This document shows positions 14,435-61,859 of a stretch of DNA of 64,000 bases, piece after piece. The notes below the pieces were generated by a model. The model had not been told where the DNA came from and searched no databases. It worked only from the letters and a program-made list of their open reading frames with translations. This stretch comes from Stegostoma tigrinum (taxonomy: Eukaryota). Both the position numbers and the translations under genes were made by a program. The stretch lies in contig NC_081380.1 of the NCBI RefSeq assembly GCF_030684315.1, positions 34,870,705 to 34,934,704 of the forward strand, written 5' to 3'. Each line of letters begins with the position of its first letter. Position 1 is the stretch's first letter.

Positions 14435-15290
14435 GACCATAAAAAATAGGAACAGCAGCATGCTGGTCAGTCCCCTCAAGCCTGTACTGCCATTCAAAAG
14501 GATCACGACTGATCTGACACTCATGTCCACCTTCCTGCCCTTTCCCCAAACTCTTGATCTGCTTACTGATCAAGAATCTATCTATCTCAGCCTTAAATAC
14601 ACAAAAAGACTCTGTCCCTACATTCTCTGTGGCAAGGAGTTCCAAAGGCTCTTGTGAATTCCTTCTCAATCTTAAATTGGTACCTCTTTATTCTGGTCCT
14701 ATGCCCTCTGATCCTACAGGGGAAGCATCCTCTCAGCATTTACCCTGTCAAGTCCCTCGAGAATCCTACGTGTTTCAATGAGATCACTTCTAGTGAGAAG
14801 AGTCCCAATCCGTTTAGCTTTTGCTTCTGAAAGGATTGTTGTATATCAAGGATTATCCTAGTGAACTTTCTCCAACTAACTCCAAGGAAATGATATCTTT
14901 CCTTAAATAACAGGGCCAAACTGCTCACTGTATCCCAGATAGGGTCTCAACAGTGCCTTGTACAGTTAGTAGTAAGACTTCCATACTCTTGTAATCCAGC
15001 CTGTTGAAATAAAAGCCAACATTCCATTCAGGTCTGAGGAAGGATCATCAGACCTGAAATGTTAACTCTGTTTTCTCCTTCACAGGTGCTGCCAGACCTG
15101 CTGAGCTTTTCCAACAACTTTGTTTTTGTTCCAACATTCCATGAGCCTGGTAGATTACTTACTGCACCTAGTTGTGTGTTTCGGCCACAATCCCAAATAC
15201 CCTTTATGGTGCAGCTTTCAGTCTTCATATCAGTAACACGCTTTTGTTCTCCTTCTTAAAATGAACACCTTGGCATTTTCCCACATTATG
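14435..15290 (-). mobile_element. CR1 LINE 3' fragment
   Basis: FKAEIDRFL and LGLFSLE motifs. Confidence 0.8.
15028..15130 (+). mobile_element. Pseudo-LTR fragment with degenerate hammerhead (CTGAGGA at 15034)
   Basis: Perfect TSD CCAACATTCCAT at 15016 and 15131, interrupting a CR1. Confidence 0.8.
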
Positions 15291-15702
15291 CTCCGGAAAA
15301 TGCTGGAAATATCCAGTGGGTCAAAGGTCACTGGCATTGTCTTCAGTGTGTATCTGACTCAAATGTTTCAGACTCCCCTTTTCTCCCTTAAAGCTCCCTC
15401 CTTTCCATTCCACCCCTAACCCCAATTAAAGCTGTCCAGGAAACACCCACTGTACTTCCCCAACCTTAGCCCAGCACCCATTCGTAAAGGGCTGCTGTGT
15501 GAGTGTATTTGGACATCTTGAATGCATACGAAATACTGTTCCCAGTAATTTGTTTTTACAAACTCAAATTAAAGGTGGAATAGCACATCTGACACAATCT
15601 GTCATTGTGAGTGCTGCGCCTCCCGCTGAAACCTCGCAACGCTGCGTTCTCATTTCGAAACTGGTGTTCCTTCAAATTGCAATTACCAGACACTGCCTCG
15701 TT

Positions 15703-15720
15703 AAATCGAAACCGAAACTG
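15703..15720 (+). promoter_or_regulatory. ISRE / IRF-binding element
   Basis: AAATCGAAACCGAAACTG contains GAAANNGAAACT and ends 27 nt before the tapasin-like ATG. Confidence 0.8.
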
Positions 15721-15747
15721 TCGCTGCGCCTGGACCGACGATGCACA

Positions 15748-15793
15748 ATGTATCTGGAGGTGTTCCTGTTGCATTTTTGGATTGTTGCAGCCG
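15748..15793 (+). CDS. TAPBPL: Tapasin-like exon 1, signal peptide (MYLEVFLLHFWIVAA-G)
   Basis: Hydrophobic leader with phase-1 donor gtaaga; joins to give ...AAGIVQA-QNG, a plausible signal peptidase site. Confidence 0.85.
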
Positions 15794-18700
15794 GTAAGAA
15801 CGTCGAACGCTTCCAGGATGAAAGAGGCAGGACGTGTTTTAAGTTTTGACATTGGTCATTTGACGATTGGAAAGCGGCGTTTCGGACGAAACTAAATCTT
15901 GTGGGATCCTTAAAGGTCAAGACCAGGTTAAAATGGCAGCGCAGCTGCTTATCTTTCGGTTCCTGGTGATAGCTGCAAATGGTCTTGGATATAATGAACA
16001 CATCAGTACGCGATGAACGTCATTGGCTCACTATTTCAATGACGGGAGAATAAACTGGCTTTTGGAACCCTTCCCCCTTCTTTTCCAATTGGGAGAAGGT
16101 TAAAAGCTTATGCATAACACGGACCGAGGGTTGGGCGAAACATTTTTCTGATTGCCATTGTGATTGTGAAGATTTCCTCTTTAGGTCAATTTAGCTCAGT
16201 TTAGTTGGACTATTCCCCTGAACTACAAGGCACTGCCACCACAATGCAGTGCTGAAGGAGCAAGTTCTTCAGGGTGGGAGTATGGTGATAGGTGAGCACA
16301 GGTAGGGAGTGGTCAGTGAGGTGGGAGTGGGGGATAGGTGCGAAAGAAGATGGACAAGTTGTATAAGGACAGAGAGGCCAGGATGACAGGTAGGGTTGGT
16401 CATGGAATGAGGCTGGGGTGGTGGTGGGAGATTTTGGAACTGCTAAAGTCCACATTTAGGCCATTGGGTTGTAGGGTCCCCAGGCGGAATATGAGGTGCT
16501 GCTGCTGCTTCAGTTTCCGGGTGGTGCCATTGTGACACTGGAGAAGGCCCAGGATGGACACGTCGCCCAGGGAATGGGAGGGAGAGTTGACCAGAAGGTG
16601 GTCTTGTTGTTTGTTGCGAACAAAGCGGTCTCTGAGCCTCCGCTTGGTCTCTCCGATGTAGAGGAGGCCACATCGGGAGCAGCAGATGCAGTAGACCACA
16701 GTGATGGATGTGCAGGTGAACCTCTGTCAAATGTGAAAGGTTTGTTTGGGGCCTTGAATGAAGGTAAAGGGGGAGGTGAGGGGGCAGGCGTAGCACTTCC
16801 TGTGGTTGCAGGGAAAGGTGCCATGGGTGGTGGGGCTAGTGGGGAGTGTGGAGCAGATGAGGGAGTCATGGAGAGAGCAGTCCCTACAAAAGAGAGGTGG
16901 GAGTGGGGAGGGAAATATATCTTTGGTTATGGGGTTGGATTGCAGGTGGCGGAAGTGGCGGAGAATGATACATTGGATATGGAGGTTAGTGGAGTGATAT
17001 GTGAGGACAAGGGGGATTCTGTCTTTGTTTTTGTTGGGGGGGCGGGGATGAGAGGACAGAGGTGCAAGAAATGTGGTCGAGAGCATTTTCAACCACTGAA
17101 GGGGAGAAGTTACGGTTCTTGAAATAAGATGACAAATGGGATGTTCGGGAGTGAAACACCCCCGTCGTGGGAGCAGGCAGAGGTGGAGGAATTGGGAATA
17201 GGGGATTGCATTCTTGCAGGAAGGTGGGTGAGAGGAGGCGCAGTCTAGGTAGTTGTGGGAGTCGGTGGGCTTGAGATAGACATTGGTTTCGAGGCAGTCA
17301 CCAGAGATGGAAACAGAGGGGTCTAGGAAGGAGAGGGAGGTATCAGAGATGGTCCAGGTGAACTTGAAGTTGGGGTGAAAGGTGTTCGTAAAGTGGATGA
17401 ACTGTTCAAGCCCCTGATGGGAGTACGAAGCATTGCTGACACAGTCATCGATGTAGCGGAGGAAGAGGTGGGGGATGGGACCAGTGTAGCTGCGGAAGAG
17501 GGCCTGTTCCACGTATCCTACAAAGAGGCAGGCGTAGCTTGGGCTCATGCTGGTACCCAGGGTCACCCCCCTTTGTAGGAAGTGGGAGTTCCCTATCTTC
17601 CCCAGACACACCCCTCTTCTCTATTTATCTTCGAGCTCCCTTGCCCGTTCCGCTTTTCTGAAGAAGGGTCCTAACCTGAAACAGCAACTTTCCTCTCATG
17701 TTGCCTGGCTTGCTGTGTGTGTTATCGCTGAAGGTTTAAGGTTTGGTAGCCATAGTCTTACCTTAGGCTGCTTTCTACTGGAGAGATAGAGACAGAGAGA
17801 GATAACTGGTGCTGGTTTAACCTCAGCTGAGTGTAGTGGTAGTCCTTCATAGTAATCTCAGCTGTTGCAGGAATTGAACCCACGCTATTGGTATCTCTTT
17901 GCAGCACAACTGGCAATAAAACCAACTGAACTCAATGCTGTTGTAATGCTTTTCATGATTGATGGAACTGTAAAGTCCTTGTGAGAGACAGCTAGATGTT
18001 AAAATGTCGCTACCTCTAGGCAACTAGAGATGGGCAATAAATGCTGATCTAATCAATGATGTCTCCATCCCATTAACAAAATAAAGTAAAGAAGGGGTTG
18101 GCTAGCTCACTTGGTTGAGTACAGAGTGACACCAATGATGCGGGTTCAGTTCCTACATCGGCCGAGATCAATGTGAGAGTCCTGCCTTCTCAACCTTAGC
18201 CCCTCACCTGAGCTGTGATGACCCTCCGGTTAAACCACCCATCAATCATGTCGCTATCTCATGGACAAGCAGCCCTATGATCATCTGGGACCGTGATGAC
18301 TTCACCTTATCTTCATTTTAAAGAAGAACAGAGAGTTCTTTGTTATCTGTGGAAGATTTCTGGCCACTGAGGGAATGCAACTGATTCCAAGGATGGCAGG
18401 ATTGACATTGGAGGGAGATTGGACTGGTTAGGACTACATTCACTGGAGTTTAGAAGAATGAGGGGGAGATCTGCTAGAAACCTATAAAATTTTAACAGGA
18501 TTGGACAGGGTTAATGCAGTAAGGATGTTCCTGATGACCAGGAAGTCAAGAGCCAGACATCTCAGTACAAGGGTACAGGGTAGATCATTTAGGATTAAGA
18601 TGATGAAAATTTCCTTCGCCCTGGGAGTGGTGAGCCTGTGGAACTATCTGCCTTAGAAAGCAGCTGAGGACAAAAATATTTGATCTTTTCAAGAAGGATG

Positions 18701-21700
18701 TAGACATAGTTCTTGGGGACATAAAAGAGTATGTGGAGAAAGCAGAACACTGTACTGAGATAACAAGGTGTGGAGCTGGATGAACACAGCAGGCTGAGCA
18801 GCATCAGAGGATCAGGAAAGCTGACATTTTGGGTCTAGACCCTTCTTCAGAAATGGGGGCGGGGAAAGGGGATTCTGAAATAAATAGGGAGAAAGGGGGA
18901 GTTAGATAGAAGATGGATAAAGGAGAACAGTGTACTGAGTTGGATCAGAAACAGAAGTTGGTGGAAAAGCTCAGCAGGTCTGGCAGCATCTGTGAAGAGG
19001 AAGAGTTACTGCACCCAAAATGTTAACTCTGATTTTTTTCTTCACAGATGTTGCAGTTGCTTTTCCAGCAACTTCTGTTTTTGTTCCTGATTTACAGCAT
19101 GTGCAATTCTTTCAGTATTTATGTACTAAGCTGGATGATCAGCTATGATCATACTGGATGGCGAAGCAGGCTCCCGAGACTAAATGGCCAAATCCTGCAC
19201 CTATTTTCTGTGTTTCTCTGTGTCGTATACCACAGCAAAGACATCAGCCAATATCACCCATTTGTGTAATTCATTACAGTGAAGTTATATGGCCTGTATT
19301 TGGCTCTGTGTTCGATCAACTTACATTTAATGTGTTAGCTAACTTATGACTAACTTACTCAGAGAAAGGCACTCCTTGAGTCGTTTATGGAAATCTAACG
19401 GTTTTATTTAGGAGCTTTCTGTGAATTTGTGGACTGATTGAGTGGACAGAGTGAAGTGCAGTCTGGTTGAAAGCCTTTGGAACATACAACTGGCTCCATA
19501 ACATGGAGACCTATTCATACTTAACTTCATATTAGGGCTGAGGCTAGTTTAACGGCATTCAGTTCAATAACATAACATCGTTGTGCATGTACACTTACAT
19601 TTAAGACTACTTTAATTTCGGGAGTCACAAACTAATCCATGTAAAATGAATTAGCTTCAGAATATAACCCACTAATTGAAAACTTTAGGAGCAGAACAAA
19701 ATCCTAGCTAATATTCTCAAGTTCTCCAATCTTTTTGTAATATGGAAAATTGACCTTGTCAAAAATGGACTAAAATGTTCAATTTGTAATTTACTATATG
19801 TTTTTGAACTTTAAACTCATGGGCCACTGTGACATTATATGATGGGAGTCAATGTTAAAAGATTCGTTTATTCATTGAGGTGCCTGGGTAATTTGTGGAG
19901 TGTGGTATGCATTTGGTATTAAAAGTTTTTTTTATTTAGGTGCTTAATGTATTTTTAAGGAATTGTGCAGGCACAGAATGGACGCAGGATTCCAGGCAGA
20001 AAATTGGACTGCACGTTTGTAGAGCAAAAACAAAATGAACAGGCTGATGTTTTTGGGCCAATCGTCATCAAAAGGAAGGCAACCTTACTGTTTGGTGATA
20101 TTGCTACAAATGACGAGGCCATTATTTTTAAAGTTCAAGGTAAGGATGAAGCATATCTTCAAATTAATTCTCTCAGGCAAGCCCCCTCTGCTGTACATAG
20201 AGTAAAACAATGTAGAAGTGCTTTAATGCTCCCAAAGTTACTTGTATTAAAGTCCAACATTGTTTATTTTGTTAGAGTAGCAGATCTCCTATGGCATTGC
20301 TCATAAGAATTCAGACAATCCACTGATATCTAAGAAGTAATAAATGCTGTAAAACACAAGAGATATAAATTGTAACACCCACCATTCTATTGGAAAATTA
20401 ATAAATTAAGTGCAATACTGGTTTTATATCCAGCCTGATTATTTTTTATTGAAGTCACTGGTGAGTAATATTGTTCAGAGATTTAAACAGATGTTCCATA
20501 TGATCCATTGGTTTCCCAGCCAGCAAGTTCAGTCAAAAACATCCTCAAAACAAATTATTCTCCAGATAAATATAGGTATGCATCTCTTTAATTGTACAAC
20601 TCTAACTGAATCCAGGGTTTGAAGCTGAGCAAGGAAACTCGTAGGCTGATTCATGGCCAGCTCAAGGCAACACTTTAAAAGGACCAGAACCACATCAGCC
20701 CTGGTCTTTATTAAATGGCTGAACAGGCTTGAAGTATCAGATAGCCAACTTCTGTTCCTAAATTTTATGTTTCTGTGTCCTGCAGCACAGTTTCGGTGAA
20801 TGACTTCAACCTAGGCTTCCTGGATCGAAGGCAGGGACAGTACCACTAATGATCAAGTCTATAGTTTGTTTTCAATTAAACCAGTTTTTCTAATCAACTG
20901 TTCAGAGTTGTTATTACACATCTCTTGAGCAGGTAGGACTTGAATCCAGGGACGCAACCACTGTACCGCAAGAGGGTCCCCTTGTGTGCAATCAAGTGAA
21001 GCCTCAATGAATGCCATTCACCTGCATATAATTAAACATAATTGACATACAATTAATATGGGCTTTAGTGGACACTACTTACCTGCCCTTTTGATCGTAA
21101 TCCAATAGAATATAAAATTGATGCAATCATTTAGGTCTCATTATCAACCATAGGTTATGCGACTTGCCATGTCTGAGTACACAGTGTGAAAGAATGAACA
21201 ATCTTGCACACCCCATTTCAATTTGGTGCAAATGGAGCTTAACATAGTGAAGCAATTCATTTACTGAGACTTACCAATAAAGTGAAAATATAAGGGTATA
21301 CCTGGGCAGATTGCTGTGCTTAAGTTGGCTTCTGCATTTCTTACATTACTCTAGGGATTATTTGTCAAATGTAATTCCTTGGCTGAAAAACTCTCTTGGA
21401 GATATTTTGAGCTTTGTAAAGGTGCTGAACAGACGTTTCATGAAAGACAAGGTGTTAACAAGAATCCATTACTGGAAAAAAACAATTCTGCACAACCTCT
21501 GAAATTATAACATGACAAGGCTAGCTTACTCTTTAAGAGTGACCTGTTTCGATCAAAAGTTAGGCTGCATTTTCAATGTTTAGTTTGAAAACATCTTTTG
21601 GGACAGACGAGTCTACAGGTTCTTCAGCTCCCTGAAGTCAGTCTATTAAATATATATATTCAAGATGTAAATTCAATTTTTCAGAAAAATTTATAGGATC

Positions 21701-24700
21701 TTACAATGTGGGAGGAACAGCAAACTGTGCTTCATTAATGTTGAGACCTCTCTCTATATGACTAATTTCCATCATTTCTAATAATTTGCCGTTACTTATT
21801 ATGTGTATCAATTTTTTTTAACAGAGACTTCATTAGATGTTTTCCAGTATGTGGACAAAAAACTGGACGCATTAGGATGTGAAATTAATAGGTATTCTAC
21901 TCATGGCATCCATATGCCCTGGCCGCACGAGGGTAAGGAGGCTATTGAAGACATATGGTTCACACTGACTTTAAAGCATTTAAGTACCAGGTTCACTGTA
22001 ACCGGCTTCATGAGGAAGATAGATGAGCCCAATAGCCAGGAAGTTGAGAAAAGTGAAGCAAAAACTGATGGTGAAGATTTACCCATTGGTGACACTGACA
22101 CTCTGTTTGTTCAAGGTAATGTTTTAATGTTGACAAGCTGAGCGCATGTTCAGAGTGAGTGCTGCAAGAATGTGTGTGAGAGATGTGGGCAATATTTGTT
22201 TTGCATAAGCATATTAAACCCTATCAACTCCAGTGATAATACAAGAAATGAAACATCCAAAGAAATATAAACAACTTATGTCTGCATATTTAAGATGCTG
22301 AACTTCGGAGAACGTACAGTTTCAAATAGTTTTGGCTGAGTTATTAGCAGTGATTTAACTTTTACAAAAATGGACAGTCATTGCCTGTTTGTTTTTATTT
22401 GTTAGTGACCTATATTGTACACACCAGGACCCCATTGATCAGAACTAAACTGAAGCAAGACCTCATTCTGGACTGTGGCTACAAAATTGATCACAGTACA
22501 GACTTTAACGTTGACTGGCGGTATCAGCACAAAGGGAGCAAGAAGAAATTGTTTTCCTACAATGGGCGACATCAGCGGATTGAATTCATTGAGACAGGAG
22601 TTGAATTATTCATGGACCAGATCAAAAAGGGAAATGCTTCACTCCGTTTAAGAAACATTGGTATTAAAGATGAGGGATCCTACCTGTGTTCTGTATATGT
22701 GCCTCCACTCTTTGGAACACACACCATTGAGGTCGAGATTATGGGTAAGATGTTGAGTCTAGTGAATTAATCAACATGGAAAGTTAACAGATTAATGGAA
22801 ATGTACTCATTCATTTGGTAACAAAACAACACAGAAGTCAGAAGAAGGTTGAAAGGATCATTTTCATCTTACTGCCTCCTGAATAAAGCTGAAGTTGTTG
22901 CTCCAGTGGTAGTGCCTGGATTAATTATTCCAACCTACAGCAAGGTGCATTTTAACATCATGCAGAAATGTGGAGTGCAAATTGTTCAGAATTGTGCCAG
23001 AAAAAACATCTTCACCCTGGTTGTCAGGGAGGTATCTTCTAATCAACCTAGTCAAGGGTGTTGTGACCTCCAGAGCAGATGGGAATTGAACTATTGTCTA
23101 GTTGAGAGGTAGCATAACAAGAGCATTGCCGTGATTATCAGTGATCAGAGTGATTGCAATCCTGCTCAGCTATGCACCAAGTTGTTTCTAGTTACTGTAG
23201 AGGGACTCAGTGGCTTGCTCCTGGTCTTATGTTTTCCTCATTAGAAGAGGAGTCGTACCAGACACACAGTGTTAACTCTGCTCCTCTCTCCACAGATGCT
23301 GAATTTCTCCAGCATTCTCTGTGTTTGGATATGGGCCTGGATTGTGATTAAGTAAGCCAAATATAGCGAGTAAACTTAAGGAAGCAACACAGGATTACCA
23401 TTGTCCCTGTCCTGTAAATGGAGCAAATGCCAAAGCTTCACAGATGAATGTTGCCCTGGTGCTACCATCATAGCTTTGCCTCCAAAACAAATTGTTTCAG
23501 CAACTTTTTGTTACAGTGTGTTAACTGTGTAATGTGATTGTACAGGAAATATTACTATCAAAAACTGTTGAAACTGCTGATTTTTAAAAAAATTCCTGGT
23601 TATTTGTCATGTTCCCAATGAAAAGGTCTCTTATTCTAATTTGATTCTAATTAAATGGATTGAAAGCTAAAAATCCTAAGTGTCAAAAAGCTCCTGTGAA
23701 TCTTGAAGGTGTGTTTGCTCGTTGTGAAGTGTTGTAATACAGCTGTTTGCTTATGTTGTAGAGTCGCCCATTGTCTCTGTGAACCCTGATTCGGTTTCCC
23801 TTATTGAAGGGGATGAACAGAAGCTGGTCTGTGATACAGGGCGGTATTATCCACTTGATGTAGCGGTGAAGTGGCTGCGGCAAAAGAGTGCGAGGCACAT
23901 GCTGCCCGTTTACATGACGAATGTTGTCTTCTCCCCCCACAAGCGGAACATGGATGGCACCTACAACTTGACCAGTTATTTCAGGTTCACAGCATCCCTC
24001 CAGGACAATGGTGTTATGTATGTATGTCGCGTTGAGCACGCCAGCTTAGAGAAACCAATCAAACAGTACATCCAAGTGAATGTCGAAGGTAAGCAATGAA
24101 CAGAGTCCTATGCTACTTGCTTTTAATTGTTTGTGGTATGCAATATGCAATACAATTTGATGCCAGAACTGTTCATGAATTTTATTTAACCTCTCATATT
24201 TATATGGAAGCTGCACCACTTCAGTGAAAACATCTATTGTGGGTTTTGAAACCAATCTGGTCTATTCATTTAAACTGATTAGCCTTCCCAAAGGTCCATC
24301 TTTTGTCAGTTTTCTAGCAGTCATATGCTCTTGTTTTCTCAAAATCTGCTTCAGTCAGCATAAAGGACCTAAGGGAAACTAGGGATTCTGCACACATTGA
24401 CACATTTCTCTCCAGTGGAATTTAGATGGTCATGGTTAGTTACCCTTCATAATTTCCAAACTTTTACAATACTTTGTATCTTATGCAGATATTGTGGAGA
24501 ATGTTAAACTGGTTGTAAGAAAAGTTCTTGCAATTACTTTTGTAACTTTTTGTTTGTACATTCAGTATATCATCACTCCATAGTTTATGCCTCATTTGCA
24601 TGAGCAGCAATTCCTTTAGCCTGCTTAGGTTTGGCATTATGGGATCCATTGTCTAAAATGGCTATTGTTAGTGTCACCATCCTCTGACAGGATTGGTCAG

Positions 24701-27700
24701 TCTTTGACCCTTTTGTTCGCATTGGATCATTCTGGCTTCGCCAAGCAAACTGGGCTCCTAAGAACGCTTCACAGATAGTAAGAACTGCAGATGCTGGAGC
24801 CAGAGACAACACAGTGGAACACAGCAGGCCAGGCAGCATCAGAAGAGCAGGAACATTGATGTTATAGATCATGTTTTGCTTTGTTTTCTTTTAATGTGGC
24901 TTTCTTTCATTGAAACATAATGCTACAGATTTGGTACTAACAATAAAACAGAAGTTTATTGCACAGAAGGCATAACGTTAAAATAAGACAAAGCTAACTA
25001 AATTTAACACGGTTTGAAAAAAAATTAAAACACTTAGTGAAGCATAATCCCAGCCACTAGCCAAGACCATCACTTAACAAGGTCCAGAGAAATTCCTTCC
25101 TTATCAAATCCGTAGGTTTGACTTAACTGCATCTTCTCAGTTCTGGTCACATGAACTGTGAAGCTTTTTCACGTGACGAAGCAAACCATCAAGAGCTTAG
25201 ATTTTCTCAGTATTTAAATAATCTGCAGTGTTATTACCAAATACTGCTGGTCTGTTAGTTTCACAGACTACACTTTTCACGGAGGCAACTTATTTCCTTA
25301 ACTGCTCTGAAAAATCTCCCATTGAAGAAGAAGCTATACCTGTTTCTCACCCCAGTCAGGTTTTCCAATGATCTTCCCACAAGCTTTTGAACTAAATTTA
25401 AATTCTTACTCATCCTAGCATCTGCTAAGCTAATGACTTTTCTCTCTCTGGCCACAATCCCCCACAAGACAAACACACTTGCATTAACACTGTAGAAGGC
25501 AAATACTGGTTTAAGATTGTGCTTCTGGAAAGACTGACCTAGTTAATTTAAAATCTTTCACAAAAATAGACAAACACATGTGACAGAGATGGTAAGAACT
25601 GCCGATGCTGGGGTCAGAGGTAATACCGAGTAGAGCTGGAGGAACACAACAGGCCAGGCAGCATCAAAGGAGCAGGAAAGCTGATGTTTCGGGTCAGGAC
25701 CCTTCTTCAGACCCATTTCTGAAGAAGGGTCCCAATCCGAAACATCAGCTTTCCTGCTCCTTTGATGCTGCCTGGCCTGCTGTGTTCCTCCAGCTCCACA
25801 CTGTGTGTAAACACATGTGGCAGTAGTTCAAGATCCAAACTCTCAAAGGTTAGTGTATTTAAATTACACACTTGTCATCACAACATTGTTACCACTGTGC
25901 ATTGAATGTTGCTGGTGGTTAATGGCTTGCCAGTTAAGCAGACTGCTTTGTCCTGAATGCTGTTGGGTTTCGTGCGCATTGTAACTCCAAGTGGAGAGTG
26001 TTACATCATACCCCTGACTATTACCTCATAGATTGACAAACTTTGAGGAGTAAGGATGTTAGTCACTGTCAGCAGAATTCCATTTCTAGTCAGTGGAAAT
26101 ACCCATAATGTTAATAATACGAGATAAATGCCATTGAATGTTAGGTAGCAGGCTAGCTTTTGTCTTCTTAGAGATGTTCATTGTCTGGCAGTTGTGTGGC
26201 ACAAATGTATTTTGCTACTTATCAGATGAGCCTGATTGTGGTCCAGGCCTTGTCACACATGGACAAGAATTAAGTATCCGAGGAGTTGTAAATTGTACAG
26301 ACCATCATGTAATCATAAGTAATCTTGAAATTGTTGTACATTCAGAATATCGTTATTCCATAGTTCATTCCCTATTTGCATCAACAATGACTCCTTTAGC
26401 CTACTTAATTTTGGCATTATGGGCTCTACATTCTAACGTGGCTATTACCAATGTCACCACGAGACCCTTTGACAGGGAAGGATAGGCCAGTCAAACCATC
26501 AATATTCCCACTCTAGCCTTACGATGGCAAGAAGGTTATTGACAAAGCAGATAAAGGTGATTTGAGCCATGAATACTATTGTGAAGAACTCCCTGGGCTA
26601 AGATTATTGACGTTTAATGACCTAAAATTACCTTCCTTTGTACTAGACATGACTCTGACCAGCAGAGAGTTTTGCTCTGATTCCCACTAACTTCAGTTGA
26701 TTCCATTCTCGTCGTATTACTTCCTTAATGCCAATGGCAATCACAGTCATTTTCACTTATGGGTTCAGCTCTTTGGTGCTTGTTTGAACCAAGGCTGTGG
26801 TGACATCAGGAGCTAAACTGAGGACATTGCAAATGAAGCAGTGGAATTTCTTGCCATTTATATTAACTTGATTTTTAAACAATTGTTGGAAATTTCAACT
26901 AGAAAGATATATAACAAAACTTAAAACCATCAAAAGTTGGGATGAAATCTGGGGACTGGACATGATGTTGAATAAATAAGGGCTGCATAGTGTGTATAAT
27001 GATAGCAAGGTCAGAGGGGTTGTACAGGGTGGGGATGATGTGTTGATTATTTTAGGATTTTTTCCCCTTGGCGTCCTGTTATGCATTAACATGAATTAAC
27101 TTGGAAGTGGACATCCACTTGTCAGTGATCAAACAGTTTTGAAATTGAATAGAAAGGCCAATGAGTTAGCTTAACTTTCTGAAGAAGTATTTAAATCAGC
27201 TTTGCAACTGAGGAAATGAATTAAGTTCTACCAATAAACATATTGAGTGAAAAATGGAAGATCTGTTTTCTGGTATTGGTTTGAAGGATAAATGTTGGCT
27301 AAGATACGCTGCTCTTCTAATTCTCCTTTCAGGGCATCAACTCTTCACAACATGCACAGTGACCTGGAGTAGCAATCTCAAAATACTGATGCTCATTAAA
27401 TGTTTCTTTAATCCACAGCACAATCTCAGACACTTCAATTTATCTTACTGTCAATTGTGATCGTCTTTATCTGTGCTGTTGTGATCATGCTGCTTGTTTA
27501 CTTGAAGAAAGGTTAGTGTTCTCCTATTACAGAAGCTGTGCTGTTAGTCAGCATGCTCTGATTCAGACTGTCAACTTTCACTATAATCACCTTCTGTCTC
27601 GACTAATTTTCATTTGCTAGTACGGAACTGAGCTTTGCTGAAAAATGACGTGTTTTGACAATGCTTTTCATCTAATACCCATTAGGACATTTCAAAAGAA

Positions 27701-30700
27701 TATCAAGGAGAAAACAAGCATTTATATTGCATGAGAGGAATGTGTTGATTGGTTGGCAGTTGGATTCTGATTGGTAAAGGTGTTGCCATGAGATATGCAC
27801 CCATGTATGTAACACTGACAGTTAACAACCAGGCTTTGTTTACATTTTAAACTTGGCAGGTAGGCTCTGATTAGCCAGGGCGTTGCCCTCCGAACTGAAC
27901 CAGCAAACGGCTGTTGTAACAGGTGTATCCCATGTCCAAGTTATTTCTATCTGCAAAGATCAGGGCTTTGTGCATTAATGCAACTTCCAGAAGGTGACAA
28001 CACCACTATCCATAAGAGGACGCTTAATCAACTTCTCCTTTCATGCAATATAAGAACATAAGAACTGGGAGCAGGAGTAGGCCATCTGGCCCCTCGAGCC
28101 TGCCCCGCCATTTAATAAGATCATGGCTGGTCTTTGAGACTCAGCTCCACTTACCCGCCCACTCACCATAACCCTTAATTCCTTTACTATTCAAAAATTT
28201 ATCTAGCCTTGCCTTAAAAACATGCAGCGAGGTAGCTTCAACTGCTTCACTGGGCAGGGAATTCCACAATTTCACAACCCTTTAGGTAAAGAAGTTCCTC
28301 CTGACCTCAGTCCTGCATCTGCTTCCCTTTATTTTGAGGCTATGCCCTCTAGTTCTAGTTTCACCTAGTAGGGGAAACAACCTCCCCGCCTCCACCTCAT
28401 CTATTCCCTTCATAATCTTATATGTTTCTGTAAGATCTCCCCTCATTCTTCTGAATTCCAATGAGTATAATCCCAGTCTACTCAGTCTATCCTCATAATC
28501 CAACCCTCTCAACTCTGGAACCAACCGAGTGAATCTCCTCTGCACCCCCTCCAGTGCTAGTATATCTCTTTTCAAGTAAGGAGACCAAAACTGCACACAG
28601 TACTCCAGGTGTGGCCTCAGCAGGACCCTATACAGCTGCAGCATAGCCTCCCTGTTTTTAAATTCCATCCTTCTCGCAATGGCAGACAAAATTCCATTTG
28701 CCTTTTAATCACTTGCTGCACCTGCAGTCCCACCTACAGCGATTCATGCACAAGGGCACCCAAGTCCCTTTGCACAGCAGCGTGCTGCAATTTTTTGCCA
28801 TTAAAACATAGTCCATTTTGCTGTTATTCCAACTAAAATGGATGACTTCACACTTATCAACATTGTAGTCCATCTGTCAGACCTTTGCCCACTCACTTAG
28901 ACTATATATATCCCTCTGCAGACTTTCAATGTCTTCTGCACACTTTGCTCTACCACTCACCTTAGTGTCATCTGCAAATTTTGACACACCACACTTAGTC
29001 CCCAACTCCAAATCAGTTGAAGTGCCACCACTGATCCCTGAGGCACACCGCTAGTCACTGGATGCCAACCAGAAAAACACGCATTTACCCCTGCTGTTTG
29101 CTTTCTACTGGTCAACCAATCCTCAATCCATGCCAACACATTACCTGTAATCCCATGCAACTTTTATCTTATATAGCAGTCTTTGGTGTGTGCCTGCTGG
29201 CAATCCAGATACACCACATATGAATGTTGATTTTTGTTTTTCCCTTAAAGTACCCTTAAAAAGCCTTCCCAATCTCTTAAACATTCAATCTGTTCACAAA
29301 ATGATGTGGTTGTTGAGTTTTTAATTGCTTTCTGTCCTTTCCTTTGCAGTTGCAGAAAAAAACAAGGTAAGAGCAATATAATTTGAAATTTTACTAAAGC
29401 CGTAAAGTTTTGCAAAGAAATTATGCAAGAAAAGGATAATTTTAGAAGACCTATTGATATATTCACAATGCAGTTGTAAGTTTTTTTTTATTCCCCAGAC
29501 TACGAGAAAGAAATTAAACAGGTTGGGCCCAAACCTATGCGGTTTTTAAAAATGAGAGATGGCCCAAAGAGGCTTTGCGGAGGGGCTGATACTGAGAATA
29601 TGTTTCTCCTCCTGCAAGAATCTAGAACTAAGAAGCCGGGTTGCACAACAAGGGCTGCCTGATTTAAGGTGGAGGTGAGGAGACATTTCCTCTCTCCGAG
29701 GCTCATTTGCATTTGGAAGTCGCTTCCCTATAAGGAATAGTCAGTGAAGGTACTTAAGGCTGGCGGAGGTTGCAATGGCAAGAAGCTATCAAAGGAGCCT
29801 TGGTGAGTTGCTGTGATGAGTCTTTAGGTAATATTCACTGTTGCCACTGACTGTTGAAGATGGAGTGCCAACCAGGCGGGCTCTTTGTCCTGGATGATGC
29901 CAGGCTTCTTGACGGTTGATAGAACTCCAGCCATCTTGGCCGGTGGAGAATGTTCCATTACTGATTCATGCCTTGCAGTCGGTGGGCAGGCTTCGGTGAA
30001 TCAGGAATTGAGTTACTGCCACTATTTATATGATTGGTCCAGTTCAGTTTGTGGATAGTGGAGAATTCTGTGTTTGTGATACCGTTGAACATCAAGGGGA
30101 GATGGTTATGTTCTGTCTTGCTGGAGATGGTCATTGCCAGGCATTTGGGTGGCATGAAAATTACTTGCCACTTATCAGCCTAAGCCTGAGTGTTGTTCAT
30201 GTCTTGCTGCATTTTACATGGACTGCTTCAGTATCCAAGGAGTTTTGAATAGCACTGAACATTTGTGAATAATTGTTCACCTCTAGTTCCCTTGATACAT
30301 GTCCCCTCATCCCTAATCCCTGCTCCCCATGTGGCCCCAGAATGTGGCATACTCCCCCGACTAAGTCCTCAGCCACTTTTCTCACTTTTCAGGAAGGCAG
30401 GCAGCCAGGCCAGTGGTGAATTGAGGCCCTTAGCTGACTGGTCATGAACCACAAGGGCCTTATTCAGTGCTAAGCTGAGTAAGTGCCTACCGTATTTGCT
30501 AAAATGGGGGCAGATATCTCTGCAGACATATCTGTATGTCTTAATGACCTGCATAGACAGAATAGTCACACCTTTTGAATTTAGAATGGTCAAGTTTTTC
30601 CACTGCGTTGAGGTAGGAATAGATATGAGATGTTGGGCTGGAGATTGATGATGCAACTAATGGTCTGTGGAGTCGGAAGTTTGGATTAAAAATTTAAACC

Positions 30701-30859
30701 TATTAATTAAAGTCAATGTGATTCAATGAAGGGCTTTTTTTTATTCCCTTATCTTTCAACTATTCCGAATAGCCCTTAAACTTAACTTGTTGCTATAATA
30801 TGCCAGTGTATTTTCTAATGTTCTTCCTTTTATCTCTTCAACAGAAAAAGCCATATTGA
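15748..30859 (+). CDS. TAPBPL: Tapasin-family protein (tapasin-related/tapasin-like), 435 aa, 8 coding exons: 15748-15793, 19960-20139, 21825-22115, 22406-22744, 23762-24088, 27419-27511, 29350-29366, 30845-30859
   Basis: Exons sum to 1308 nt in one frame, all GT-AG. Domains: signal peptide; tapasin N-domain (LDCTFVE, CEINRY, WF); IgV (LDCG, VDWRYQHKG, DEGSYLC); IgC1 (CDTGRYYPLDVAVKW, DGTYN, YVCRVEHASL); TM; KKPY tail. The symbol is tentative because this is probably not the strict orthologue of human TAPBPR. Confidence 0.92.
16259..17726 (-). mobile_element. Decayed Penelope-like retroelement (Neptune type), 5'-truncated, with an inverted pseudo-LTR piece at about 17590-17726
   Basis: RT fragment (GVTLGT, LRYIDD, YLKPTDSH), C-x4-C-x2-C linker (PCNHRKCYAC) and GIY-YIG endonuclease (VYCICC..LYIGETKRRL); frameshifted; possible TSD GCTGAAGG at 16251 and 17727. 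Confidence 0.92.
18093..18310 (+). mobile_element. tRNA-derived SINE (other copies at about 14060-14250 - and 17790-17935 -)
   Basis: A/B-box-like head; shared GGTTAAACCAC body motif across copies. Confidence 0.65.
18375..19210 (+). mobile_element. CR1 LINE 3' fragment (interrupted)
   Basis: ggactacattcactggagtttagaagaatgagggg, typical of the CR1 ORF2 end. Confidence 0.8.
18760..19121. mobile_element. Two adjacent pseudo-LTR insertions of different subfamilies inside a CR1 3' end
   Basis: 18760-18923 (minus, with hammerhead) and 18946-19121 (fold-back), each with a duplication of about 15 bp. Confidence 0.8.
19960..20139 (+). CDS. TAPBPL: Tapasin-like exon 2, N-terminal domain with editing-loop region
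   Basis: LDCTFVE...KRKATLLF; acceptor tttaag and donor gtaagg. Confidence 0.9.
21825..22115 (+). CDS. TAPBPL: Tapasin-like exon 3
   Basis: CEINRYSTHGIHMPWP..WFTLTLKH; acceptor aacag and donor gtaatg. Confidence 0.93.
22406..22744 (+). CDS. TAPBPL: Tapasin-like exon 4, IgV domain
   Basis: C..W..DEGSYLC Ig V-set pattern; acceptor gttag and donor gtaaga. Confidence 0.95.
23762..24088 (+). CDS. TAPBPL: Tapasin-like exon 5, IgC1 domain
   Basis: YYPLDV..W and YxCxVxH Ig C1 signature; acceptor tgtag and donor gtaagc. Confidence 0.95.
25587..25808. mobile_element. Palindromic pseudo-LTR dimer with a hammerhead motif on each strand
   Basis: Arms at about 25630-25711 and 25718-25800; TSD at 25572-25586 and 25809-25823. 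Confidence 0.88.
27419..27511 (+). CDS. TAPBPL: Tapasin-like exon 6, transmembrane (AQSQTLQFILLSIVIVFICAVVIMLLVYLKK)
   Basis: Translated by hand; acceptor ccacag and donor gttagt; hydrophobic helix followed by a KK stop-transfer. Confidence 0.9.
28050..29220 (-). mobile_element. CR1 LINE ORF2 3' part and 3' UTR
   Basis: VTSGVPQGSV; MLQLYRVLLRPHLEYCVQFWSPY..LGLYSLEFRRMRGDL. Confidence 0.93.
29350..29366 (+). CDS. TAPBPL: Tapasin-like exon 7, 17-nt cytoplasmic microexon (VAEKNK)
   Basis: Long polypyrimidine tract plus tgcag acceptor and gtaaga donor; converts phase 1 to phase 0 as required for exon 8. Confidence 0.75.
30845..30859 (+). CDS. TAPBPL: Tapasin-like exon 8 (KKPY-stop)
   Basis: Strong polypyrimidine tract plus aacag acceptor, then AAA AAG CCA TAT TGA. 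Confidence 0.78.
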   Translation, partial: KKPY

Positions 30860-30904
30860 GACTGTTAAAGAGGATTCAGCATAAGTCCTGATAAGGAAAG
30901 AAAA

Positions 30905-31325
30905 GTATTTATGTGGACCTTTAGCACATCCTTGGAGCATTTGCAAAAGCGTCACCAGCAGTGAATTACTTTGAAGGGCTGAGAGTACAAACACATGCTG
31001 CAGGGAACATGTGCACAGCAACATCCCACAGAGAGCAAGCAATTGGCTGATTCATCAGTTTAGATGTTATTCTCAGAGAGAGGAATATGGATCAAGGCAC
31101 AGTATTAACTCTCTGCACTCGTTCAGGTAGATGCTTTACATCCACTTGAACGAGTGGAAATGGAGGACAGAGCCGCAGTTTAATGCCTGATCTGAAAGAT
31201 GGCCTTCATTAATGGCCCATTACTTCCTCAGCATCCTGAGGTTAGGTTCCAGATTGAAGCTGAAACTACAAGGTTCTGGTTCAGACCAGGAGTGCTCTGA
31301 ACTGAGCCAAGCTCATCGAGGCATG
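30905..31325 (-). mobile_element. Deu-domain SINE, antisense, just after the tapasin-like stop codon
   Basis: Resembles the reverse complement of the 36450-37030 family. Confidence 0.55.
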
Positions 31326-32227
31326 AATTTCGCCTTCACTTATCGCCAAACTATCATTCATTGCTGAGTGACAGAACCCACAGCGTACCTATAACAACAT
31401 AATGCTCATCTATCCCTGACCCAAGCGGCTGTAAATTCTCTATTAAGCTGAACAGGTTTGTGTTTGAAGTTGAAACTAAGTTTTTAGATCTGTTGTTTGT
31501 TGAACAGTCCATTCCAAATTGTTCTCTTCATCTTCCATTCTGTTTGTTCTAAATTATGGAGAACCAGTAGGGCATTCACTCGTGCTAAGGTGAATTTAGT
31601 TGCCAGCTTGATGCCAATCCTCTGTTTCTCCTGATGAGAAATATGGAAGCAAGCCAGCAGTATAGCTCCGGTCTGCTGGCCAGAAAATTGGTGATTGTTT
31701 TGTAACAATCCCATTTGGACACAAAGGTTACAGAAACATGAAAAACAGGTGCAGAAGTAGGCCATTCAGCCCCTTTGAGACTACACCACCATCAGTATGA
31801 TAATGGCCGATCATACAATTTCAGGATCCCACTCCCACTTTCTGCCCATACCCCTTGATCCATTTAGCGACAAGGGCCATGTCTGGCTCTCTCTTGAATA
31901 TATCTACCAAACTAGCCACAACAGCTTTCTGTGGTAGAGAATTCCACAGAAGTCTCAAAGTGAAGAAATTCTTCCACATCTCAGTCCTGAATGGCCTACC
32001 CCTTATTCTTAGACTGTGCCCCCTAGTTCTGGATTTGCCCAACATCAAGAAAATTCTTCCCGTGTCTAGCCTGTCCTGTCCCAACAGGACCTTTTATATG
32101 TTTCTATGAGGTTTCCCCTCATTCTTCTAAATTCCAGTGAGTAAAAGCCCCGTCGATCCAGTCTTTTTTTCTAATGTCAGTCCTGCCATCCCGGGAATCA
32201 GTCTGGCAAACCTCCGCCAGACTCTCT

Positions 32228-37063: not shown

Positions 37064-40020
37064 TGAGATAATGGGAACTGCAGATGCTGGAGAATCTGAG
37101 ATAACAAAGTGTGGAGCTGGATGAACACAGCAGGCCAAGCAGCATCTTAGGAGAACAAAAGCTAAAGTTTCGGGCATAGACCCTTCATCAGAAAAGGGGG
37201 AGGGGGAGACAGTTCTGAAATAAATAGGGCGAGAGGGGAGGCGGATCGAAGATGCAAACAGGATAAGACAGGTTAAAGGGGCGGGGATGGAGCCTGTTCA
37301 AGGTGATATAGGTGGGGAGGTAGGGAGGGGATAGGTCAGTCCGGGGAGGATGGACAGGTCAAGGGGACAGGATGAGGTTAGTAGGTAGGAAATGGAGGTG
37401 CAGCTTGAGGTAGGAGGAAGGGATAGGTGAGGGGAAGAACAGGTTAGGGAGGTGGGGATGAGCAGGGCTGGTTTTGGGATGCAGTGGGGGAAGGGGAGAT
37501 TTTGAAGCTTGTGACGTAACCCCGCGCACAGCCGACGCCGATATCACTCCACCCACAGCCTCTGCAACCAGCAGCTGCAGAGAAGACAGCCACACTGAGC
37601 ACTGCCGAATCGTCACCATCCCCCAAGTCTTTCCCCTGACTGAGGACGAATGGTAAGCCCTCAGTTAAGGGGCTCACCTTTGTCCCCCTCCACCCTCAAA
37701 TAATGAATACCAGTCACGTTTGGACATTGAGCAGTTTTTCCGCCACCTTCGCCTCCACGCTTACCTCTCTAACTGTGAGCCTAACCATCCCTCCACTGAT
37801 CCCTTCTCCCGCCTCCAACACAAGTCCTCCTCCTGAACACCACCCCCGGGCCTCCTACCCTCCCTCGACCTCTTCATCTCCAACTGCCATCGAGACATTA
37901 ACTGCCTCAACCTCTCCACCCCTCTCACTCACTCCAACGTCTCCCCCGCAGAACGGGCAGCCCTCTGCTCCCTCCGCTCCAACCCCAACCTCACCATAAA
38001 ACCCGCAGACAAGGGTGGCGCAGTGGTAGTATAGCGCTCTGACCTCGACATCGCTGAGGCCAGGCACCAACTCTCCAACACCTCCTCCTACCGCAACCTT
38101 GACCATGACCCCACCCCCGAGCACCAAACCATCATCTTCCAAACCATCCACAACCTCATCACCTCAGGTGACCTCTCACCCACAGCCTCCAACCTCATTG
38201 TTCCCCAACCAAGCACTGCACGCTTCTGTCTCCTTCCTAAAATCCACAAACCTGCCTGCCCTGGTCAACCCATTATATCCCCCTGCTCCTGCCCCACCGA
38301 ACTCGTCTCCACCTATCTGAACTCCATTTTCTCCTCCTTGGTCCAGGAACTCCCTACCTATGTCCGTGAAACCACCCACGCCCTCCAACTCCTCCAGAAC
38401 TTCCAATTCCCTGGCCCCCAACACCTCATTTTTACTATGGACGTCCAGGCCCTATACACCTGCATTCCCCATGCAGATGGCCTAAAGGCCCTCCACTTCT
38501 TCCTGTCCCGCAGGCCCAAACAGTTCCCCTCCACCGACACCCTCATCCGCCTAGCGGAACTCGTCTTCACCCTCAACAAGTTCTCTTTTGATTCCTCCCA
38601 CTTCCTACAGACAGAGGGGGTGGCCATGGGTACCCGCATGGGCTCAAGCTATGCCTGCCTCTTTGTAGGTTACGTGGAACAGTCCCTCTTCCGTACCTAC
38701 ACTGGGCCGAAACCCCACCTCTTCCTCTGTTACATTGATGACTGTATCGGTGCCGCCTCATGCTCCCAAGACGAGCTCGAACCGTTCATCCACTTCACCA
38801 ACACCTTCCACCCAACCTCAAGTTCACCTGGGCCATCTCCAACACATCCCTCATCTTCCTGGACCTCGCTATCACTATCTCAGGCAACCACGCAGAAACC
38901 GATATCCATTTCAAGTCCACCGACTCCCACAGCTACCTAGAATACACCTCCTCCCACCCACCTTCCTGCAAATATTCCATCCTCTATTCCCAATTCCTTT
39001 GCCTCTGCCGCATCTGCTCTCAGGATGAGGCATTCCACTCCTGTACATCTCACATATCCTCGTTTTTCAAGGACCGCAACTTCCCTCCCGCAGTGGTCAA
39101 GAACACCCTCGACCGTGTCTCCCGCATTTCCTGCAACTCCTCCCTTACACCCCATCCCTGCAATAACCGCCAATAGAGAATCCCCCTCGTCCTCACATAC
39201 CACCCCACCAATCTCCGGATCCAAAGCATCATCCTCTGACACTTCTGCCACCTGCAATCCAAACCCACCACTAAAGACATTTTTCCCTCCCATCCTTGTC
39301 TGCTTTCCGGAGGGACCACTCTCTCCGTGACTCCCTTGTCTGCTCCACACTCCCCTCCAACCCCACCACACGTGGCACATTCCCCTGCAACCGCAGTAAG
39401 TGCTACATTGCTCCCACACCTCCTCCCTCACCCCCATCCCAGGCCCCAAGAAGACTTTCTACATCATGCAGACGTTCATCTGCACATCTGCCAATGTGCA
39501 CATCCGCTGTACCCACTGTGGCTTCCTCTACATCAGGGAAACCAAGCGGAGGCTTGGGGATCACTTTGCAGAACACCTACGCTCGGTTCGCAATAAACAA
39601 CTGCACCTCCCAGTCGTAAACCATTTCAACTCCCCCTCCCATTCCTTAGACAACATGTCCATCCTGGGCCTCCTGCAGCGTCACAATGATGCCACCCGAA
39701 GGTTGCAGGAACAGCAACTCATATTCCACTTGGGAACCCTGCAGCCTCAATGTGGATTTCACAAACTCCCCTCCCCTCACTGCATCCCAAAACCAGCCCT
39801 GCTCATCCCCGCCTCCCTAACCTGTTCTTCCTCTCACCTATCCCCTCCTCCCACCTCAAGCCGCACCTCCATTTCTTACCTACTAACTTCATCCCACTCC
39901 CTTGACCTGTCCGTCCTCCCCAGACTGACCTATCCCCCTTCCTACCTCCCCACCTACACTCACCTCTACAGGCTCCATCCCTGCCCCTTTAACTTGTCTG
40001 TCTCCTCTCCACCTATCTTC
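37064..40020 (+). mobile_element. Decayed Penelope-like retroelement (Neptune type) with an inverted pseudo-LTR at its 5' side (about 37064-37514, minus strand)
   Basis: RT motifs KPADKGGAVV, FTMDVQALYT, GVAMGT, YIDD; GIY-YIG (CTHCGFLYIRETKRRL); stops and frameshifts; about 37260-37510 is the reverse complement of about 39765-40010. Confidence 0.94.
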
Positions 40021-46652: not shown

Positions 46653-46654
46653 TG

Positions 46655-57719: not shown

Positions 57720-57796
57720 TGGATTTGAGCTGTAATGGAGTTTATCAAATCTGAATTTCAAAGTAGTTCTTGGAGAAGTTTTACACTTGGCTGTAT
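57720..57796 (-). CDS. RAP1GAP2: RAP1GAP2-like exon (DTAKCKTSPRTTLKFRFDKLHYSSNP)
   Basis: Acceptor cctccacag and donor gtaagt; lies within ORF 57678-57869. Confidence 0.9.
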
Positions 57797-61698: not shown

Positions 61699-61859
61699 CT
61701 GTCGGAGAAAAATGCAAGTCAATATGTCAGTGCCGCAGCTTGAGAGCATTCTTCCTGTACATTTATGTTACGTTAGTGACACTGAAAATCTTGGTCTTAT
61801 CTCCTGGTGCAATGAAATCAATTCCTTATACACTCCAAACAAATGGTACATTCATAGCT

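What the first reader, a model, noticed from the sequence alone, without database searches (positions are those of the whole stretch)
15748..30859. Complete shark tapasin-family gene that is neither classical tapasin nor typical TAPBPR
Seen: a TAPBPR-like ectodomain (disulfide-type IgV, WRYQHKG, YYPLDV) combined with tapasin-like traits (C-terminal KKxx; N-glycan sequon GNAS at the position of tapasin's IgV glycan). Neighbours are EXO5 and RAP1GAP2-like, not MHC genes (tapasin) or CD27/VAMP1 (human TAPBPR). Motifs such as RYSTxGIHxxWP and the KKPY end fit my recollection of a third tapasin-like lineage in fish and other non-mammals whose function is essentially uncharacterised. Inference: an ER-retained, TAP-independent MHC-I chaperone or editor, perhaps for non-classical class I.
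Basis: partly seen in the sequence, partly recalled or inferred. Interest (0 to 1): 0.75.

Follow-up and report, generated by a model that had tools for sequence, protein, structure and literature searches.

The report
Shark gene for third tapasin (TAPBPL)
This is an intact shark gene for TAPBPL, the already named but functionally untested third member of the tapasin family of MHC class I helper proteins; its sequence suggests it likely stays in the endoplasmic reticulum and likely holds class I molecules apart from the TAP peptide pump, and it shows that sharks already carry this third paralogue.

Summary
Eight GT-AG exons (15748-30859, +) encode 435 aa: signal peptide, tapasin N-domain, IgV, IgC1, TM and a KKKPY end. 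The protein is identical to the zebra shark RefSeq 'tapasin-related protein-like'. Trees place it in TAPBPL (100/100), the third lineage named by Grimholt 2018 in bony vertebrates. Grouping it with TAPBPR is rejected (p-AU 3e-33). Zebra shark has a separate classical tapasin, and four other sharks have a separate TAPBPR.

The IgV disulfide, WRYQxxG, YYPLDV and the GNAS sequon also occur in shark tapasin, so they are family-ancestral.

What distinguishes the protein: no tapasin TM lysine or linker for TAP, no TAPBPR C94, none of the cysteine Grimholt called TAPBPL-unique, and a changed TN6 class I-binding patch (D-R-Q-T). The E-R-Q-Q form is in 29 of 30 TAPBP/TAPBPR and 0 of 34 TAPBPL. A consensus ISRE lies 28 nt before the ATG.

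Likely role: an interferon-inducible, ER-retrieved chaperone for immature or atypical class I, off TAP. Binding is untested. The lineage is known; I found no shark record of it in the searched literature.

The parts
15708..15719 (+). ISRE-consensus element, 28 nt before the ATG (predicted interferon/IRF site)
   Evidence: Only exact GAAANNGAAACT match in the window; 0.39 expected per window, 33 of 100 shuffles had at least one. Pattern chosen after seeing the site. Lies on a CpG-rich patch 15601-16000 (o/e about 1.1 vs 0.27).
15748..15793 (+). Exon 1: start codon and most of the predicted signal peptide (aa 1-16)
   Evidence: hydrophobic N-terminus; identical to RefSeq P0234
19960..20139 (+). 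Exon 2: N-domain part 1 with C33 and the loop equivalent to the tapasin editing loop / TAPBPR scoop loop (aa 16-76)
21825..22115 (+). Exon 3: N-domain part 2 with C94 and the TAPBPL signature (Y-S-T..W-P; T101 and W108 in 34 of 34 TAPBPL); L123 in place of the TAPBPL cysteine (aa 76-173)
22406..22744 (+). Exon 4: IgV domain; C196-C267, TN6 positions D209/R211/Q213/T277, sequon N249 (aa 173-286)
   Evidence: Pfam V-set E 3e-11
23762..24088 (+). Exon 5: IgC1 domain; C309-C374, YYPLDV, TC2/TC3-equivalent region, second sequon N354 (aa 286-395)
   Evidence: Pfam C1-set E 3e-11
27419..27511 (+). Exon 6: TM helix about aa 402-423, uncharged, with C413
29350..29366 (+). Exon 7: 17-nt cytosolic micro-exon; skipping it would shift the frame and remove the dilysine signal
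   Evidence: included in 4 of 4 contigs
30845..30859 (+). Exon 8 coding part: KKPY and stop, completing KKKPY (both KKxx and KxKxx)

Best explanation
This gene encodes shark TAPBPL, the third tapasin paralogue, which is likely an interferon-inducible, ER-retrieved chaperone that likely grips immature or peptide-poor MHC class I/b2m outside the TAP complex and would hold it in the ER until it folds or is loaded. Shown: the intact gene, its orthology, the domain order, the KKKPY tail, an uncharged TM, the changed TN6 patch, the sequon and the ISRE-consensus site. Predicted: a tapasin-type fold. Inferred steps: (1) induction through the ISRE; (2) COPI retrieval by the dilysine tail; (3) no docking on TAP, because the tapasin TM lysine and acidic linker are missing; (4) no ERp57 or UGT1 disulfide link, because there is no free luminal cysteine, though the N249 glycan could still engage calreticulin; (5) class I is bound on the usual concave face, but loss of the Q272-equivalent weakens capture of folded peptide-class I, favouring chaperoning of nascent or atypical class I over TAPBPR-style editing.
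For: Orthology: full-length ML tree of 30 rows gives TAPBPL, TAPBP and TAPBPR each 100/100. It includes Grimholt's own kiwi TAPBPL reference XP_013817376.1 (P0244) and human TAPBPR. AU test rejects window+TAPBPR, p 2.65e-33. Fold: AlphaFold2 mean pLDDT 85.9; top matches are tapasin and TAPBPR complexes over the whole ectodomain (Foldseek E 1e-25; VIA Z 25.8, rmsd 3.3, 316 aligned to 3f8u_D). Tail: dilysine in 33 of 34 TAPBPL, 8 of 11 TAPBP, 2 of 19 TAPBPR (TAPBPL rows chosen for complete C-termini). TM: K/R at the tapasin site in 8 of 11 tapasins including zebra shark; window TM has no charged residue; Grimholt reports the same loss. TN6: E-R-Q-Q in 29 of 30 TAPBP+TAPBPR, 0 of 34 TAPBPL; window D-R-Q-T. 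Human TAPBPR-TN6 (E205K, R207E, Q209S, Q272S) loses binding to folded HLA-A2 but still rescues surface HLA-A2 in tapasin-knockout cells, read there as chaperoning of nascent class I (PMC9956121 passages). Salmon TAPBPL genes are virus- and IFN-gamma-induced (PMC12234341 passages); ISRE match here.
Against: I found no binding or localisation data for any TAPBPL. The window keeps R211 and Q213 and a conservative D209, so it is far milder than the four-residue TN6 mutant, and editing may be intact. In amniote TAPBPLs the patch is degenerate, which could mean the client is not class I at all. The structure model used an alignment containing TAPBP and TAPBPR, so the fold match is not independent, and a fold shows no function. 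One ISRE match per window is not rare by itself (33 of 100 shuffles); only its position is notable.
Confidence: 0.52

Rival explanations
1. TAPBPL is a true peptide editor like TAPBPR, ER-confined, with its TN6 patch retuned to a particular (possibly non-classical) class I lineage.
For: The loop after C33 is as long as in TAPBPR and shark tapasin and has a hydrophobic tip (26 residues over the aligned span vs 24 in human TAPBPR and zebra shark tapasin). R211, Q213 and L266 are kept. [D/E]-R-Q at the first three TN6 positions in 12 of 13 chondrichthyan TAPBPL suggests a constrained binding face.
Against: The Q272-equivalent, invariant in 30 of 30 TAPBP/TAPBPR, is Q in 1 of 34 TAPBPL. No class I lineage with a matching distribution was identified: UT is absent from non-mammals (PMC4509613 abstract).
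Confidence: 0.25
2. TAPBPL replaces tapasin in an alternative peptide-loading complex on TAP, with CALR-like and ERp57-like paralogues (Grimholt's speculation).
For: Dilysine tail and N249 sequon as in tapasin. PMC5824609 proposes alternative complexes and reports similar expression profiles in salmon.
Against: No TM lysine or tapasin-type acidic linker in the window, while zebra shark tapasin P0219 has both. No free luminal Cys: the extra TAPBPL Cys is in 0 of 13 chondrichthyans.
Confidence: 0.1
3. The client is not class I. It may be a class II or W-type MHC molecule (sharks lack DM), or another Ig-superfamily protein; or an exon-7-skipped form may act at the cell surface as a B7-like ligand.
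For: DM is reported absent in sharks and most bony fish (PMC9586880 passage). TN6 is degenerate in amniote TAPBPL. Exon-7 skipping removes the dilysine, and a basking shark RefSeq isoform has such a tail (P0233). B7-H6 was the best PDB sequence hit.
Against: TAPBPL persists in tetrapods, which have DM. 4 of 4 contigs include exon 7. B7-H6 falls outside a 100/99 tapasin-family clade.
Confidence: 0.1
4. It is simply the shark TAPBPR orthologue, as the RefSeq name suggests.
For: RefSeq name 'tapasin-related protein-like'. No carpet-shark TAPBPR appeared among the 120 listed of 145 hits.
Against: AU test p 2.65e-33. White, horn, basking and sevengill sharks each have both this gene and a distinct TAPBPR. 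TAPBPR C94 is absent. Identity is 35% to kiwi TAPBPL vs 26-27% to shark TAPBPR.
Confidence: 0.02

Closest known systems
TAPBPL (TAPBP-like) of Grimholt 2018, PMC5824609: gar, teleosts, frog, turtle, birds, opossum. Not the human gene symbol TAPBPL, which is TAPBPR.
   Same: Same clade; same N-domain signature, [K/R/P]KPY-type tail, no TM lysine, sequon at the tapasin N233 position.
   Different: Cartilaginous fish are not among the sequences of that paper's Fig. 6 or Text S4. The cysteine it calls unique to TAPBPL is absent in 13 of 13 chondrichthyans. The shark form keeps more of the TN6 patch than amniote forms.
Tapasin (TAPBP), including zebra shark XP_059495426.1 (P0219) and human structures 3f8u and 7qng
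   Same: Predicted fold, dilysine ER tail, IgV sequon; 31% identity to zebra shark tapasin.
   Different: No TM K/R or acidic linker for TAP; TN6 is D-R-Q-T instead of E-R-Q-Q; no MHC gene was recognised in this window.
TAPBPR (human TAPBPL gene; shark P0081, P0268-P0270; structures 5opi, 5wer)
   Same: Predicted fold, uncharged TM, long N-terminal loop; TAP independence inferred.
   Different: Has a dilysine tail (2 of 19 TAPBPR do); lacks C94 (present in 18 of 19 TAPBPR); changed TN6; separate clade.
B7-H6 (NCR3LG1)
   Same: IgV+IgC1 pair; best PDB sequence hit, E 9e-29.
   Different: No tapasin N-domain; outside the tapasin clade. The hit reflects the divergence of the human tapasin and TAPBPR sequences in the PDB.

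Membership tests
Tapasin family | Signal peptide, N-domain, IgV, IgC1, TM with six conserved Cys | tested here: met
   C33, C94, C196, C267, C309, C374; Pfam; structure matches span residues 27-392
TAPBPL (Grimholt 2018) | Clusters with reference TAPBPL sequences, apart from TAPBP and TAPBPR | tested here: met
   100/100 with kiwi XP_013817376.1 and Xenopus laevis
TAPBPL (Grimholt 2018) | ER-retention dilysine (some members) and no TM lysine | tested here: met
   KKKPY; uncharged TM
TAPBPL (Grimholt 2018) | Extra N-domain cysteine described as unique to TAPBPL | tested here: not met
   L123 in the window; Cys in 11 of 34 TAPBPL and 0 of 13 chondrichthyans. It is also absent from frog, turtle and opossum in Grimholt's own alignment, so it is not a universal criterion.
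TAPBPL (Grimholt 2018) | Conserved synteny with bony-vertebrate TAPBPL loci | not testable with these tools
   No eukaryote genome held; only gar LG22 coordinates seen
TAPBP (classical tapasin) | TM basic residue and acidic linker for TAP docking | tested here: not met
TAPBP (classical tapasin) | Member of the TAPBP clade | tested here: not met
   zebra shark has a separate tapasin on another contig
TAPBPR | C94 (UGT1 link) and no ER-retrieval tail | tested here: not met
   K87 at the C94 column; KKKPY present
TAPBPR | Member of the TAPBPR clade | tested here: not met
   p-AU 2.65e-33
MHC class I chaperone/editor (function) | TN6 patch E-R-Q-Q | tested here: inconclusive
   2 identical, 1 conservative, 1 lost
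MHC class I chaperone/editor (function) | Binds class I/b2m and chaperones or exchanges peptide | not testable with these tools
   No class I or b2m sequence among the session's proteins (motif check); needs experiment

The most novel reading that the evidence does not exclude
TAPBPL is the earliest-branching tapasin paralogue and a natural 'TN6-variant' chaperone dedicated to a separate MHC client class (a non-classical class I lineage, or class II/W molecules in DM-less fish). It would define a third, TAP-free ER loading route kept from sharks to marsupials and lost in placentals, possibly with an exon-7 switch that releases it from the ER. The rooted V+C1 tree favours TAPBPL-first (94/86), but the alternatives are not rejected (p-AU 0.13 and 0.14).
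Probability: 0.2. Interest if true: 0.8.

Novelty: new member of a known kind. Interest (0 to 1): 0.4.

Why it matters
It puts all three tapasin paralogues in the last common ancestor of living jawed vertebrates. The white shark has TAPBP in the MHC, a TAPBPR, and this gene at a third locus. The published range I saw for TAPBPL covered bony vertebrates only. Databases and at least one shark MHC paper use 'tapbpl' or 'tapasin-related' for TAPBPR, which hides this lineage.

The function of TAPBPL is an acknowledged open question (PMC12234341, PMC9372762 passages). The residue contrasts found here (Q272-equivalent lost, no free Cys, no TM lysine) give direct mutants to test, and shark TAPBPL is among the least diverged forms to express. 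A specialist would find it useful rather than very surprising, since the lineage is named and the gene is already in RefSeq.

Tried and rejected
1. Special link to B7-H6: it was the top PDB sequence hit, but the tapasin family is monophyletic to the exclusion of B7-H6-like rows (100/99). Rejected.
2. TAPBPL as a substitute for a missing shark tapasin: sharks have TAPBP. Rejected.
3. Marsupial UT class I as the dedicated client: UT is absent from non-mammals. Rejected as sole client.
4. TAPBPL-first rooting: preferred but not significant.
5. Own-genome search: no genome held, so zebra shark TAPBPR and synteny could not be checked. No carpet-shark, ray or chimaera TAPBPR among the 120 of 145 listed hits; this was a word-limited search and shark TAPBPR hits sit on small contigs, so it shows no loss.
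6. Naming the downstream gene by Pfam (0 hits in 16 non-repeat ORFs) and the Atlas: uninformative.
7. No RNA holder on record was listed; the contigs used are 'RNA?' guesses from related organisms.
8. The careful 41-row mixture-model tree did not finish; its quick tree agrees with the finished 30-row tree.
9. No complex prediction was run, because no class I or b2m sequence was in hand.
10. Earlier-findings look-up returned nothing.
Full report
OBSERVATION. Reading 15000-32000 and fixing splice sites gives eight exons at 15748-15793, 19960-20139, 21825-22115, 22406-22744, 23762-24088, 27419-27511, 29350-29366 and 30845-30859. All introns are GT-AG and the product is 435 aa without a break. Pfam finds V-set in exon 4 and C1-set in exon 5 (E 3e-11 each). 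The model is 435/435 identical to XP_048413578.1, 'tapasin-related protein-like' of the zebra shark Stegostoma tigrinum, so the gene is already annotated under an uninformative name. Contigs from runs guessed to be RNA, from related organisms, cover exons 2-5 or 3-5 as consecutive pieces in 3 of 4 runs (table cut). They continue from exon 5 through 6, 7 and 8 in 4 of 4 runs, confirming the KKKPY end. EXO5 lies upstream on the same strand (PF09810). A minus-strand gene ends downstream; its RAP1GAP2 label is recalled, not tool-verified.

IDENTITY. Grimholt 2018 (PMC5824609; I saw the abstract, passages and supplement parts 26-27) named a third lineage, TAPBPL, in gar, teleosts, frog, turtle, alligator, birds and marsupials, lost in placentals. 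No cartilaginous fish is among its listed sequences. The best non-chondrichthyan hits to a shark profile are coelacanth, frog, ratite and turtle proteins of this lineage, and one cluster holds her kiwi reference XP_013817376.1. I assigned group labels by motif and name before building trees. A finished full-length tree of 30 rows gives TAPBPL, TAPBP and TAPBPR each 100/100 with the window protein inside TAPBPL. Forcing it into TAPBPR is rejected (p-AU 2.65e-33), and a quick 41-row tree agrees. Zebra shark has a separate tapasin on a different contig (31.9 vs 50.1 Mb). Heptranchias, Heterodontus, Cetorhinus and Carcharodon each have this gene and a distinct TAPBPR. For the white shark, PMC10751288 (passages, supplement rows and part 96) places tapbp on chr19 and a 'tapbpl' on chr40 with a2m, cd4 and lag3. 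I infer that the latter is TAPBPR, while the orthologue of this gene sits on a 171.6-Mb contig. A zebra shark TAPBPR was not found, and no genome was held to look for it.

THE MOSAIC ARGUMENT. I compared 34 TAPBPL, 11 non-mammalian TAPBP and 19 TAPBPR proteins. The TAPBPL rows were chosen for complete C-termini; truncated or alternative-tail models such as P0001, P0012, P0020, P0022, P0027 and P0050 were left out, which inflates the tail count. The IgV cysteines are in 11 of 11 tapasins, WR[YLFHR]QxxG in 10 of 11 and YYPLDV in 6 of 11. The N249 sequon is in 28 of 34, 9 of 11 and 13 of 19. These traits look TAPBPR-like or tapasin-like only against the human proteins. The informative features are as follows. 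A dilysine tail is present in 33 of 34, 8 of 11 and 2 of 19. The tapasin TM K/R is in 8 of 11 tapasins, zebra shark included, while the window TM is uncharged and lacks the acidic linker. TAPBPR C94 is in 18 of 19 TAPBPR and absent here. The extra cysteine that Grimholt called unique to TAPBPL is in 11 of 34 TAPBPL and 0 of 13 chondrichthyans, so the shark protein has no free luminal cysteine. The TN6 quartet (human TAPBPR E205, R207, Q209, Q272; defined in PMC9956121 passages) is E-R-Q-Q in 29 of 30 TAPBP and TAPBPR but in 0 of 34 TAPBPL. The window has D209-R211-Q213-T277, most bony fish and coelacanth/lungfish keep E-R-Q with a changed fourth residue, and amphibian and amniote forms are degenerate.

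STRUCTURE AND REGULATION. AlphaFold2 on a 55-row alignment gives mean pLDDT 85.9. The best matches are tapasin and TAPBPR complexes across the ectodomain (Z 25.8, rmsd 3.3, 316 aligned to 3f8u_D; Z 23.9, rmsd 3.0, 305 aligned to 5opi_C). This is not independent of the alignment and shows no function. The window's only exact ISRE-consensus match lies at 15708-15719, 28 nt before the ATG (0.39 expected per window; pattern chosen after seeing it), on a CpG-rich patch. Salmon TAPBPL genes are induced by virus and IFN-gamma (PMC12234341 passages).

MECHANISM. Most likely this is an inducible ER-resident class I chaperone working apart from TAP. The anatomy is shown. Retrieval by the dilysine tail and the lack of TAP, ERp57 and UGT1 links follow from the roles of those residues in tapasin and TAPBPR as summarised in PMC5824609. 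Class I binding and a bias to nascent or atypical class I are inferred. The analogy is human TAPBPR-TN6, which fails to bind folded HLA-A2 yet still rescues its surface expression in tapasin-knockout cells. The shark change is much milder than that mutant, so a retuned editor remains a real rival (0.25). An alternative TAP-bound complex (0.1) and a non-class-I client or surface isoform (0.1) are less likely. Skipping exon 7 would remove the dilysine, and one basking shark RefSeq isoform has such a tail, but all four contigs seen include exon 7.

LEADS THAT FAILED. B7-H6 outranked TAPBPR in the PDB sequence search, and PMC13262535 notes that NCR3LG1 clusters near the tapasins (passages). A rooted V+C1 tree of 43 rows keeps the tapasin family together (100/99) with B7-H6-like rows outside. 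That tree puts TAPBPL first (94/86), but the other two orders are not rejected. UT class I does not match the distribution (PMC4509613 abstract).

NOVELTY. The lineage is known and described as functionally undefined (PMC9586880, PMC9372762, PMC12234341 passages). Searches listed no paper describing it in cartilaginous fish or its TN6 change; I read passages of only some of the listed papers. The library lacks most subscription journals and theses (one thesis on the tapasin family is cited in PMC9586880), so this may exist in print. PMC6523485 passages added nothing, and PMC8103088 (human TAPBPR under the symbol TAPBPL) was seen only as a search listing. Verdict: new member of a known kind, interest 0.4.

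Noticed in passing
window 15741-15743 (+): Out-of-frame ATG 7 nt before the start codon opens a 43-codon upstream frame overlapping exons 1-2; it could damp translation if the transcript starts upstream of it.
   Followed up: partly
window 29350-29366; P0233: Skipping the 17-nt exon 7 gives a tail without the dilysine; a Cetorhinus RefSeq isoform X1 has a tail consistent with this skip. Several bird and frog models also have alternative tails.
   Followed up: partly
window 1317-6013 (+): EXO5 here is split over at least three exons with PF09810 hits; 5' and middle exons were not mapped.
   Followed up: partly
window about 57700-61700 (-): Four exon-like frames of a convergent gene resembling the RAP1GAP2 C-terminus (resemblance recalled); not named by Pfam or the Atlas.
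   Followed up: partly
PMC10751288 Supplemental Table 1; P0009: The sawfish 'tapbpl' on chr21 is not on the a2m chromosome (chr46) and may be this TAPBPL lineage rather than TAPBPR; P0009 lies on a 39-Mb contig. Unverified.
   Followed up: no
one search hit list: No TAPBPR from carpet sharks, rays or chimaeras among the 120 listed hits; this may be an assembly gap or a real loss.
   Followed up: no
P0001 (whale shark): The RefSeq model ends just after the IgC1 exon, reading into the intron, with no TM; probably an annotation artefact.
   Followed up: no
window 16200-17620, 28000-29200, 37300-40100, 45800-47500: Degraded retrotransposon-like fragments with reverse-transcriptase-like frames (RVT_1 E 3e-4 at 38035-38937, below the Pfam cut-off), two of them inside introns of the gene.
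   Followed up: no
window exon 6, C413: A cysteine in the TM helix is shared by most shark and ray TAPBPLs at or near this position; possible palmitoylation or dimer site, untested.
   Followed up: no
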